The position numbers are program-made. A stretch of 64,000 nt of DNA from Perna viridis (lineage: Eukaryota). Positions 24,001 through 27,000 of the stretch are shown here, piece after piece; the first letter of the stretch is position 1; each line of letters begins with the position of its first letter. Where the stretch lies: positions 7,440,001-7,504,000 of the forward strand of contig CM074518.1 in NCBI GenBank assembly GCA_037379345.1. The letters run 5' to 3'.

Positions 24001-27000
24001 TACATGTACATGCAGAGAGACGATGTGACATTCATTTACCTGTACTTGTAAGATGTTTAGTGAATAAGGCCTCAAACTTTTCAACGAAGACCGACTCTCG
24101 GTCAATTCCCGCCCCAAATGATGCCATTATATCCTCAATCTAGAGAAGAAGGTCAAAACATCATTCCAGGTGCATGCATTTGGAGAAAATCTACCAACTC
24201 ATTCAAAACTACATATTTTTCATACCAAAATTTTCAGAGATTAACATGAATCACAGTGTAGTCACTATAAATAAAACTTTCTTATATTGCTTTTGTTTTC
24301 TTCCTTATCAATTAGTTTGACTATCACTTGCATTCTAATCTCTGAAATTTTAAAATCTTCACTTATCAAAAAATCTTGTACTCAAATCATTTTTTACCAT
24401 GGATTACATTCAACTCATATCTTAAATACAAAGATAACTTTTCTATGATGTTAATCTTTCTAAACATGAGACACTGGTTGGGATATTTTTCTTGAACAGA
24501 TAAAAGTTAAGACTACTAATCACCAATGCTTGTCACTTTAGGTCTAATTTGGTGAATCTCGAATTTACAAATGAAAGCAATTCTTTTAGCTGACTTACTT
24601 TTTGATCTAAAGCTGAGTCTGAATCCATTTTTACGATTTTTTTAACAAGATTTTCTGTGAATTTAAAACATACGGATGATCATGCTATAAATACAAGCAG
24701 AAGACAACAGGACATTATACTATATGTGTATAGATACACTTCAGTGAAGTGTTGATTTCCTGATTAAGAACATTATCTTATTTACACATTTTTTCTTAAT
24801 CAAAATCCTATCGTTTATAACAGAAGAAAATGTAATATAAATCAATGGTGGGTAATTATATCGTAACTTTGTCTTCTACTTATATAGGCATGCTTGTAAA
24901 AAATGTCTGTTCTGCTCATTCCTTCCAAAAATAGGGGGGATTAAGCAATGAAAATAATCACTTAAAATCTTTATGGGAAATATAATAAAAGGTAATTACC
25001 ATTACTATTCATTCGGTACATGTGTTTTAAGTACATGGACAAACTTTGGATGAAAATGAACAGAAACAAACATATTTCTTTTTATTATTTTATCTATTGA
25101 GGTGAAGATTAATGATAGTAGTCAGATTTCTACTGCAAGAGAAGCATACATGTATCTGTTATATCTGATATGTAAACAAAATATGGTGATACATGTACAA
25201 TTTTTACACTATACTGCATAATTATGTTATTGATTTCAATAAGAAATCTTATAAATGTGAAATGCAGTGGCAATCCAGAAGGCACATACATATTATTTTG
25301 TCTACAAGCATTGCTTCAGATGTGAAAGTGTTTTCTCTCATGACTTGATTTGAATATGGCACTTTTTCAATTTTGGTAATTTGCAACAGTTAGCTGTACT
25401 TTCATGCACAAGTATACCACTGAAAAAAAAGAGAAAATGATTTTCCCACATGCTGGTCCTTCAGAAAAGCCATCATCTGAACTGATAGTTTCCCATCTAT
25501 TTATATGTCATGACAAACATAGGTTTGTATGCAATCTAAGGTTAACAAATTACAGTTCCTGGATCTATTACTCAATAAAATCACCTAAATATTATAAGAA
25601 AGAATATTTCCTTCTCATTAATTTTCTGTCTAGAGACCTACTGCTGGCTTCCACTAAAACATAATTAAGTCTAGACAAGAATGGAATTGCCATACTATAC
25701 CTAAACAATGATACCTGGTTATAGAGTATGCCAACTAAAGAACATTTTTCTGTAAATTTAGTGCAGCATTTAATTGTGTATGAAATGTTGACATGCAAAT
25801 CCAATTAGCAAATTTGAAGGAAACAATTTTCTTAGCCTGCAGGTGTATGGATGGCTAATTGTTTCAGGTAGCAGACATCAAAATATATGCTTGTATTAAA
25901 CATCAGATAGATGGGAACCTTGTTCAAGATGGAAAGTTTTTCTTCAAGCAGAAATTCAAGCAAGCAGATTGAAAGACAGGCAACATCACTCCACAATTAA
26001 CAGAAGGCACCATGCCAACTTTAGGGGTCAAGGTCATTTCATGGTCATTTCTGGCAGGCAATGCTAGTACCTTCTAAAAGGTTGCCTAACTCTGCATCTG
26101 AAATACTTTCATCATGTGAAAGTTTGCCACCAAAACTGGATACAATATCTGCTATCTGTAAGAACATTGGTAATAATATATCAATGCTGTTGATACTAGT
26201 GGGAGTCTGATAAACAACAGCTGTCAAATTGTATTCTTTAACTGACGTCTTATTCAAATGGTAAAGAACTACTCCTTTAGATTTTATTCACCTCTTATCA
26301 GATAGAGTGTTTCTGATATTATCCTAATAAAAAAGCCTTTGTACTTATGCTGTTTTACTTTTCAAAATGTTGGCATTTTTTTTTTCTCTCAAGTCTTCAA
26401 CAATGCTCATATACATACATTGAGCAGCTCCTTTTTACCTGAAATCATTTATTTTAGGCTTTTTTGCTTAACTCTTAAAAATAAATTTATTAATTTTGTT
26501 TATATAATTATTCACTTTTGATATTTCATACGAAGAAAGAATTTTATAAAAATCTAATTGACCAAAGATTAAAATATTGTACAACTAATTGTAATGCTAT
26601 ACCTGGTTCCATTCACATTCGTCATCAAATGACCCATCTTCTTTCATCCCAGATTTCATTTCCTTATAGGCCAAACGATCTATCATTAGTTCTTTGTCAT
26701 GGTTACCACCTTCTTCTCTCTCCATTACAGGTTCAAAGGTCATGCTGCCTGTAACTAATGGCAATGACGTCCTTTTACCCTGTGGTCTGCCATGAGGCAC
26801 AGCCACATTCTCATAAATTTGTGAGACGACTCTTCTTGGTCCACCAATTACTGATCCTCGCAAAAGGCCTGGAAAGAAAAAAAAATATGCAGAATGAATA
26901 ACATACAATTAACGTCCAGAAAACATGGAGTTAATGAGATAAAGTTTGATGTCAAGATTACAAACATTGAAAACAGAATAATAAATTTGATCAAAGTTAA

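What the first reader, a model, noticed from the sequence alone, without database searches (positions are those of the whole stretch)
24040..26155. Duplicated pre-SAM motif exons: mutually exclusive or cassette splicing
After ...EWNQ there are two similar exons, IADIVSSFGGKL (85 nt) and IEDIMASFGAGI (100 nt), both phase 0-1 with good splice sites. Joining them directly frameshifts, the typical signature of mutually exclusive exons from tandem duplication. Each completes the EW..I..I..S.G helical motif that I recall as single-copy in vertebrate ANKS1. With the 56-nt exon at 24599 both could be included, so isoforms A, B and A+B are all in frame (inference).
Basis: partly seen in the sequence, partly recalled or inferred. 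Interest (0 to 1): 0.7.

Follow-up and report, generated by a model that had tools for sequence, protein, structure and literature searches.

The report
Alternative duplicated exons in mussel ANKS1
Two neighbouring, related exons just before the first SAM domain of a bivalve ANKS1 adaptor gene are an old pair of either-or (mutually exclusive) exons, an ordinary kind of alternative splicing that had not been described for this gene.

Summary
On the minus strand of a bivalve ANKS1 gene (ANK repeats, two SAM domains, PTB), the exon ending EWNQ (26868..26603) is followed by exon A (26155..26071, 85 nt) and exon B (24139..24040, 100 nt). Both run from phase 0 to phase 1, both have AG/GT borders, and both begin with a related I..I..SFG motif.

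The either-or reading is supported by relatives. Annotated isoforms of Mytilus trossulus, Physella acuta and Haliotis rubra share the same flanks and carry either an A-type or a B-type segment. Of 67 invertebrate proteins, 31 have A only, 32 have B only, and 2 have two segments; both of those look like model or assembly artefacts.

The A type was seen only in molluscs, a brachiopod and a nemertean. The B type occurs across bilaterians.

In the window, including both exons or neither gives an early stop. Reading frame plus nonsense-mediated decay could therefore enforce exclusivity.

The 56-nt bridge exon (24654..24599) is arithmetically valid. No relative supports it, and it is compatible with chance.

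No transcript data for this species could be consulted. Verdict: a new member of a known kind, of modest interest.

The parts
26603..26868 (-). Constitutive upstream exon. It ends ...ECEWNQ in phase 0 and supplies the EW start of the pre-SAM helix.
   Evidence: It is 67% identical to Mytilus trossulus residues 1087-1175. Nine relatives were found with this exon alone.
26071..26155 (-). Exon A (85 nt, phase 0 to 1), the A-type pre-SAM segment (IADIVSSFGGKLS...).
   Evidence: It scores 37.9 bits on the A profile against 8.5 on the B profile. It is 79% identical over 28 columns to the Mytilus trossulus X4 segment.
24140..26070 (-). Intron between exons A and B, 1931 nt.
   Evidence: One search gives the length. 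It is too long for steric exclusion. No outstanding complementary pairs were found.
24599..24654 (-). Candidate 56-nt bridge exon. In its own frame it reads NLVKKIVKMDSDSALDQK. Its use is doubtful.
   Evidence: It is open only when entered from exon A. It is the only strong-site candidate in the intron, but 0.12-0.17 are expected by chance. It has no counterpart in Mytilus proteins.
24040..24139 (-). Exon B (100 nt, phase 0 to 1), the B-type pre-SAM segment (IEDIMASFGAGIDRESVF...).
   Evidence: It scores 63.8 bits on the B profile against 8.5 on the A profile. It is 82% identical to the Mytilus trossulus X5 segment.
22211..22323 (-). First exon of SAM domain 1, entered in phase 1. It is the common acceptor for A and for B.
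   Evidence: Pfam SAM_1 matches at E 1.6e-07. It is 80% identical to Mytilus.
24173..24178 (-). UGCAUG element 34-39 nt upstream of exon B.
   Evidence: This is a lead only, and its conservation is untested.
24009..24014 (-). UGCAUG element 26-31 nt downstream of exon B.
   Evidence: This is a lead only, and its conservation is untested.

Best explanation
Exons A and B are a pair of mutually exclusive exons in a bivalve ANKS1 gene. The gene encodes an adaptor with ankyrin repeats, two SAM domains and a PTB domain.

Each mRNA takes one of the two exons between the exon ending EWNQ and the first SAM1 exon.

Both exons encode the same kind of module. It consists of the second half of a helix that starts at the EW of the upstream exon, a short loop, and a second amphipathic helix. 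The module lies directly before SAM1.

B is the ancestral, pan-bilaterian version. A is an old copy seen in molluscs, a brachiopod and a nemertean.

Exclusivity is compatible with a reading-frame mechanism. Both exons are 1 mod 3 in length, so taking both or neither shifts the frame and gives an early stop. Such transcripts would be removed by nonsense-mediated decay. Splice choice itself is probably regulated as well.

The functional consequence is inferred and not shown: two adaptor isoforms that differ in a helical segment abutting SAM1. In vertebrate ANKS1A, SAM1 is the domain that binds Eph-receptor SAM domains.
For: Shown in the window:
- Positions, phases and canonical borders of the exons.
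- Stops on double inclusion and on double skipping.
- Exactly one A-like and one B-like exon in 64 kb.

Shown in relatives:
- Either-or isoforms with identical flanks in Mytilus trossulus, Physella acuta and Haliotis rubra.
- Of 67 invertebrate rows, 31 have A only, 32 have B only, 1 has A+B, 1 has B+B and 2 have none.
- A profile of A-type segments scores A-type proteins at 75-104 bits and B-type proteins at 63 bits or less.
- All 24 A-type segments lie on one side of a branch, SH-aLRT 84.
- Both exons are conserved against Mytilus at 79% and 82%. That is as good as the SAM exons (74-80%) and better than the upstream exon (67%).

B as the ancestral version:
- Chelicerate, echinoderm and Owenia rows are B-type.
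- Vertebrate segments score weakly but higher on B (8.7-13.5 bits) than on A (1.4-3.7 bits).
- Of 33 further unnamed representatives that have the segment, 32 are B-type. The single A-type one is nearest to an oyster.

Module shape: AlphaFold2 models of the Haliotis isoforms give helices at 225-238 and 249-261 (A isoform) and at 225-242 and 249-261 (B isoform). The 10-residue pLDDT means there are 48-68. The alternative segment starts at residue 232.

Precedent: nonsense-mediated decay as a mechanism for exon pairs whose length is not a multiple of three is described in the Introduction of PMC6071210 (passages read).
Against: - There are no transcript data for the species of the window, so use of either exon here is inferred from relatives.
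- The isoforms of relatives are database gene models. I could not see their read support.
- One protein model, from Pinctada imbricata and not a RefSeq model, holds A, three extra residues and then B.
- The donor of exon A (gtacta) is far from consensus.
- The tree rests on 39 columns, and the A/B labels derive from the same columns.
- The structural models of the segment have low to moderate confidence.
Confidence: 0.85

Rival explanations
1. The region is not strictly either-or. A third, in-frame isoform includes exon A, the 56-nt exon 24654..24599 and exon B, giving a protein with two pre-SAM modules in tandem.
For: - The frames fit. The 56-nt exon is open only when entered from A and leaves B in its own frame.
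- It has the best donor of the region (gtaagt) and is the only strong-site candidate in the intron.
- One Pinctada model holds both A and B.
Against: - No recovered protein contains a piece like it, and it does not match Mytilus proteins.
- 0.12-0.17 such pseudo-exons are expected by chance in the intron under strict criteria, and 1.03 under looser ones. The thresholds were chosen after seeing it.
- The sequence is A-rich and of low complexity.
- The Pinctada link is three residues and is unrelated to this exon.
Confidence: 0.1
2. Only one of the two exons is used in this species. The other is a conserved-looking relic or is used so rarely as to be irrelevant.
For: - Exon A has a weak donor, gtacta.
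- Single gene models of several species show only one type.
Against: - Both exons keep open frames, canonical AG/GT borders and 79-82% identity to Mytilus. That is higher than the neighbouring upstream exon.
- Both types persist across molluscan classes.
Confidence: 0.04
3. The resemblance of A and B is chance or convergence, and the two exons are unrelated cassette exons.
For: Only about 15 residues align well, and DNA identity is low (my count).
Against: - 10 of 5000 shuffles reach the score.
- The match is at the same exon position, with the same phases.
- Both exons encode helix-loop-helix in the models.
- Skipping both or including both breaks the frame, which is not the behaviour of cassette exons.
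Confidence: 0.01

Closest known systems
Mutually exclusive pairs of tandemly duplicated exons kept apart by reading frame and nonsense-mediated decay. The FGFR2 IIIb/IIIc case is cited as reference 11 in PMC6071210 (Introduction passages read).
   Same: - Two adjacent homologous exons of similar length and equal phase.
- One is chosen per mRNA.
- Their lengths are not multiples of three, so double inclusion creates a premature stop.
   Different: - A different gene and a different protein region.
- Decay of double-inclusion transcripts is not shown here.
- The regulators are unknown.
Vertebrate ANKS1A (Odin) and ANKS1B (AIDA-1)
   Same: - The same architecture: ANK repeats, SAM1-SAM2 and PTB (precomputed Pfam domains).
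- The same EW..I..I..S.G motif before SAM1.
- The SAM and PTB domains match solved structures 2kiv, 2lmr, 5zry, 8ym2 and 2m38.
   Different: - Vertebrate rows have a single copy of the pre-SAM segment, 66 of 66. It is weakly B-like.
- No A-type exon was seen.
- 'ANKS1' does not occur in the main text of the survey of human duplicated-exon substitutions, PMC9741552. Its supplements could not be read.
Other lophotrochozoan or bivalve exon-duplication switches: oyster alternative oxidase (PMC5589949) and COQ-2 (PMC7434440). For both I saw only the search listing and the start of the abstract.
   Same: Duplicated exons spliced alternatively in molluscs, giving isoforms that differ in one homologous segment.
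   Different: Unrelated genes (enzymes). I did not read their mechanisms.
Docking-site and selector competing RNA structures (Dscam type; PMC6071210 abstract and Introduction)
   Same: The outcome is mutually exclusive exon choice.
   Different: - No outstanding complementary pair was found. There are 21 short AT-rich inverted pairs of 14-30 nt.
- The duplex energy between the two introns is -130.2 kcal/mol. Mononucleotide shuffles average -136.7, and 44 of 53 shuffles are as low or lower.
- Conservation could not be tested.

Membership tests
Mutually exclusive exons from exon duplication (criteria as in the title of Pillmann et al. 2011, seen in the reference list of PMC6071210) | Neighbouring exons in the same gene and on the same strand | tested here: met
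   A is at 26155..26071 and B at 24139..24040 on the minus strand. Only a doubtful 56-nt candidate lies between them.
Mutually exclusive exons from exon duplication | Similar length, and the same entry and exit phase | tested here: met
   85 nt and 100 nt, both phase 0 to 1.
Mutually exclusive exons from exon duplication | Sequence homology between the exons | tested here: met
   Local score 33, reached by 10 of 5000 shuffles. The motif I..I..SFG is shared at the exon start. Both give helix-loop-helix in the models.
Mutually exclusive exons from exon duplication | Canonical splice sites on both exons | tested here: met
   AG/GT at all four borders. The donor of A is weak, gtacta.
Mutually exclusive exons from exon duplication | Mature transcripts carry exactly one of the two | not testable with these tools
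   No transcripts of this species were available. In relatives, 63 of the 65 proteins with the region hold one segment, and three species have both isoform types annotated.
Exclusivity by reading frame and nonsense-mediated decay | Double inclusion and double skipping create premature stops | tested here: met
   B entered from A begins with TGA. The SAM1 exon entered in phase 0 stops after 14 codons.
Exclusivity by reading frame and nonsense-mediated decay | Aberrant transcripts are made and then degraded | not testable with these tools
   This needs RNA from cells with decay inhibited.
Exclusivity by steric hindrance | Intron between the two exons too short to be spliced | tested here: not met
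   The intron is 1931 nt.
Exclusivity by U2/U12 spliceosome incompatibility | One of the introns has minor-spliceosome splice sites | tested here: not met
   The donors are gtatag, gtacta and gtaaat, with ordinary pyrimidine-rich acceptors. The minor-type donor consensus used for comparison is recalled, not taken from a call.
Exclusivity by competing RNA structures | A docking site complementary to a selector near each exon | tested here: inconclusive
   No signal above shuffles. No orthologous DNA was available to test conservation.
ANKS1 adaptor family | Ankyrin repeats, tandem SAM domains and a C-terminal PTB domain in one gene | tested here: met
   Pfam Ank, SAM_1/SAM_2 and PID match single exons of the minus strand. 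Exon-by-exon collinearity with Mytilus trossulus ANKS1 runs from 63088 to 2877.

The most novel reading that the evidence does not exclude
The pre-SAM helix-loop-helix is a regulatory lid on the SAM1-SAM2 tandem of ANKS1. Lophotrochozoans evolved a second version, A, more than half a billion years ago. They switch between A and B by tissue, with exon B under control of the UGCAUG elements that flank it. This changes how SAM1 engages Eph-type receptors. This lineage additionally makes a double-module protein through the 56-nt bridge exon.
Probability: 0.07. Interest if true: 0.55.

Novelty: new member of a known kind. Interest (0 to 1): 0.3.

Why it matters
The region can now be annotated correctly in bivalve genomes. 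The right models are two isoforms with A or B. A model that forces both exons in, or drops one, is wrong.

The finding also adds an old exon switch to the catalogue of duplicated-exon substitutions. In the rows I saw, the A version is restricted to lophotrochozoans. Such events are usually ancient and functionally meaningful (PMC9741552: start of the abstract in the listing, and passages).

It draws attention to a conserved segment before SAM1 of ANKS1. The aligned parts of the solved structures I found do not reach it. Its function is unknown in vertebrates too.

It does not change any general principle.

Tried and rejected
- **Cluster look-up.** It was meant to show the remaining Mytilus isoforms.
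- **Repeat search.** It failed on a strand slip. I corrected it. It found no DNA repeat joining A and B and only short AT-rich inverted pairs.
- **Whole-intron duplex folding.** The first run timed out. The second gave -130.2 kcal/mol against a mean of -136.7 for 53 mononucleotide shuffles, 44 of which were as low or lower. This is no signal, and the method pairs whole introns, so it is crude.
- **Solved structures.** The best-stretch alignments to the SAM entries start 2-11 residues before the SVGEWL motif (query residues 268-277, motif at 279). The aligned parts therefore do not reach the alternative segment.
- **Third copy.** No third copy of the exon is present in the window.
- **Literature.** Searches on ANKS1B/ANKS1 with 'mutually exclusive' and on mollusc exon duplication returned no title or abstract start describing this switch. 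I read only listings, apart from the passages named elsewhere in this report.
- **PMC9013439.** It holds no text on frame or decay mechanisms.
- **Representatives search.** The rows carry no names, so their taxa were judged only by the nearest named protein. 48 vertebrate-like rows were skipped and not used.
Junction counts, tblastn against mollusc and annelid genomes, and dN/dS all need reads or eukaryote genome DNA, and none was on hand. I used protein collections instead.
- **Joined exons.** I neither built nor searched a joined spliced model. Every search with window sequence used a single exon or ORF.

Full report
**What the window is.** The window is AT-rich, with 27-35% G+C in 2-kb steps, and contains no N. 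Its minus strand carries one long gene. Single exons match the Pfam ankyrin repeat, SAM and PTB/PID models. [quoted passage not shown] The exon just upstream of the finding, searched alone, found 9 proteins with E <= 0.001 among 43 candidates. All named ones are from Mytilus, at 65-68% identity. The window is therefore an ANKS1 gene of a bivalve related to Mytilus but not Mytilus itself. It is not human. I neither built nor searched a joined spliced model. Every search with window sequence used one exon or one ORF, and all statements about frames come from single-exon translations.

**The observation.**
- The upstream exon (26868..26603) ends ...ECEWNQ in phase 0.
- Exon A (26155..26071, 85 nt) reads IADIVSSFGGKLSHDESISDAELGNLLE plus one base.
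- Exon B (24139..24040, 100 nt) reads IEDIMASFGAGIDRESVFVEKFEALFTKHLTST plus one base.
- The first SAM1 exon (22323..22211) is entered in phase 1.
- All borders are AG/GT. The donor of A (gtacta) is weak.

A and B align at their first 15 residues with a BLOSUM62 score of 33, which 10 of 5000 shuffles reach. At the DNA level the first 36 nt are only about 53% identical (my count), and no direct repeat joins the exons. The relationship is therefore old. A scan of all 4240 stop-to-stop segments of the window with profiles of the two types finds exon A (37.2 bits) and exon B (66.5 bits) and nothing else above 8.1 bits. There are exactly two copies.

**Either-or use in relatives.** The proteins recovered differ in exactly this place.
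- Mytilus trossulus isoform X4 has ...DEWDQ + IADIVSSFGGKLSHDESVS... + GSNASIHSVGEWL.
- Isoforms X5, X6 and X7 have the same flanks around IADIMASFGSGIERESVFVEKFEALFTKHLAAP.

A search with the pre-SAM-to-SAM2 part of X5 gave 749 proteins at E <= 1e-5 among 1360 candidates, of which the best 120 were listed. A search with a profile of 13 A-type segments gave 47 proteins at E <= 0.1 among 8000 scored candidates. In that second search the A-type proteins score 75-104 bits and the B-type ones 63 bits or less.

Two more species have both types annotated with identical flanks: Physella acuta (X2 is A; X3, X4 and X6 are B) and Haliotis rubra (X4 is A; X2 is B). Close relatives also split by type:
- Pecten maximus and Mizuhopecten are A; Argopecten and Ylistrum are B.
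- Sinanodonta is A; Potamilus is B.
- Candidula is A; Bradybaena is B.

Of 67 invertebrate rows, 31 hold A only, 32 hold B only and 2 hold neither: one fragment that reads into the intron and one divergent row. Two rows hold two segments. One of those, from Centruroides, repeats an identical block that includes the upstream exon, which looks like an assembly duplication. The other, a Pinctada imbricata model that is not a RefSeq model, has A, then three residues, then B. The profiles were trained on many of these same rows, so the classification is partly circular. The isoform pairs with identical flanks do not depend on it.

**Age and direction.** A-type segments occur in bivalves, gastropods, a chiton, the brachiopod Lingula and the nemertean Lineus. 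B-type segments occur in the same molluscan groups and also in chelicerates, echinoderms, the annelid Owenia and the nemertean Tubulanus. Vertebrate segments score weakly, but higher on the B profile (8.7-13.5 bits) than on the A profile (1.4-3.7 bits).

In a tree of 48 segments with 39 columns, the 24 A-type rows lie on one side of a branch (SH-aLRT 84). The A and B segments of one species do not group together. The tree is short, several forks are open, and the placement of the vertebrate rows next to the mussel B segments is not to be trusted.

A profile search of 1.84 billion representatives listed 150 proteins, 133 of them new and unnamed. Their fate was as follows.
- 48 vertebrate-like rows were skipped and not used.
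- 52 had no scorable segment.
- 32 were B-type.
- 1 was A-type, and its nearest named protein is an oyster's.

Isoforms collapse into one representative in that library, so this shows only that A was not seen outside lophotrochozoans, not that it is absent. The reading that fits is that B is ancestral and A is an old copy made before molluscs, brachiopods and nemerteans diverged. All 66 named non-human vertebrate rows have a single copy.

**Are both exons under constraint here?** Against Mytilus trossulus, exon A is 79% identical over 28 columns and exon B 82% over 33. In one search they are 71% and 82% with a few flanking residues included. The SAM exons are 74-80% identical, the upstream exon 67%, and the disordered middle exons 32-62%. 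Both alternative exons are thus conserved like domain exons.

**How exclusivity may work.** The Introduction of PMC6071210 lists four mechanisms (passages read).
- Steric hindrance is excluded, because the intron between A and B is 1931 nt.
- Minor-spliceosome incompatibility finds no support in the splice sites. The consensus I compared them with is recalled.
- Competing RNA structures find no support. There are 21 short AT-rich inverted pairs, and the inter-intron duplex energy is not below that of shuffles (44 of 53 shuffles are as low or lower). Without orthologous DNA this remains inconclusive.
- The reading-frame mechanism fits directly. B entered from A begins with TGA, and the SAM1 exon entered after skipping both stops after 14 codons.

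Only one-exon mRNAs are therefore productive. Decay of the others is inferred from established knowledge and not shown.

As a lead for regulated choice, exon B is flanked on the gene strand by UGCAUG 34-39 nt upstream and 26-31 nt downstream. The window as a whole has 42 such sites on both strands against 34.3 expected. This was noticed after the fact, and its conservation is untested.

**The 56-nt exon.** The stretch 24654..24599 is open only when entered from A (its own frame reads NLVKKIVKMDSDSALDQK), and it leaves B in frame. It is the only candidate in the intron with a good pyrimidine tract and a GTRAG donor. By the density of such stretches over the whole window, 0.12-0.17 are expected in this intron under those criteria and 1.03 under looser ones. 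With any GT donor, 18 are found against 16.6 expected. The thresholds were chosen after seeing it. None of the Mytilus proteins contains a similar piece, and the Pinctada link is unrelated. I rate its use at about 0.1.

**What the segment is.** AlphaFold2 models of the two Haliotis isoforms, built with alignments of 24 A-type and 28 B-type proteins, have mean pLDDT 59 and 63. The SAM and PTB domains are confident. Before SAM1, both models show a helix from residue 225 to 238 (A) or 242 (B) and a second helix at 249-261. The 10-residue pLDDT means there are 48-68. The alternative segment starts at residue 232. Confidence is low to moderate, and contacts with SAM1 could not be read from the output.

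The aligned parts of the solved structures of ANKS1A/B SAM domains (2kiv, 2lmr, 5zry, 2ke7, 2eam) begin 2-11 residues before the SVGEWL motif (query residues 270-277, motif at 279). By these best-stretch alignments they do not reach the segment. In vertebrate ANKS1A, SAM1 binds Eph-receptor SAM domains. In AIDA-1, SAM1 and SAM2 pack on each other (PMC9499636, passages of sections 4.2 and 4.2.1). That the A/B switch modulates such interactions is inference only.

**Novelty.** The isoforms already exist as database models in related species. Three literature searches listed no paper whose title or abstract start describes a pre-SAM exon switch in ANKS1. The main text of the survey of human duplicated-exon substitutions does not mention ANKS1. 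This is a new member of a well-known kind.

**Left unchecked.** I had no transcripts of this species and no eukaryote genome DNA for tblastn, intron conservation or dN/dS. I also could not see the cluster members of the Mytilus proteins or the supplements of the papers. The closed metagenome and viral collections were not needed.

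Noticed in passing
window 50029-50058 (-): A 30-nt cassette micro-exon with borders aag|...|gtaagt. It reads ALSNGETSG between two split codons. It corresponds to the difference between Mytilus trossulus isoforms that read PFA-AALSNGDSSSC-LLRG (X4, X5, X6) and PFAG-LLRG (X7).
   Followed up: partly
window 24173-24178, 24009-24014, 25792-25797, 25403-25408 (-): Four UGCAUG elements on the gene strand lie within about 2.1 kb, two of them hugging exon B. This may be a binding motif of an Rbfox-type splicing regulator; that identification is recalled, not from a call. 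The window total is 42 against 34.3 expected.
   Followed up: partly
window 574-933 (+), 36246-36494 (-), 45429-45779 (-): Three copies of an interspersed repeat with a shared open frame (...GAPGPCSQF.VES.LLI.FCY...). Two copies lie in introns of the gene and one lies beyond its last matched exon.
   Followed up: no
window 9025-9752, 11664-11985, 33965-34195, 39006-39365, 41288-42187: Ladders of near-identical short ORFs point to tandem repeats inside introns.
   Followed up: no
P0011 (Pinctada imbricata), residues 1154-1224: A gene model that holds the A-type segment, three residues (NFL) and the B-type segment in one protein. It is either a forced ab initio model or a real double form.
   Followed up: partly
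P0046 (Centruroides sculpturatus), residues 840-1030: An identical block that includes the upstream exon and the B segment occurs twice. This is probably an assembly duplication.
   Followed up: partly
P0140 against P0141 (Oncorhynchus ANKS1B): One salmonid row lacks the pre-SAM segment that the other has. The homologous exon may therefore be skipped in some vertebrate models.
   Followed up: no
P0003 (unnamed source, 189 aa): A Mytilus-like fragment that reads from the upstream exon straight through its donor into intron sequence. It is an unspliced or mispredicted model.
   Followed up: no
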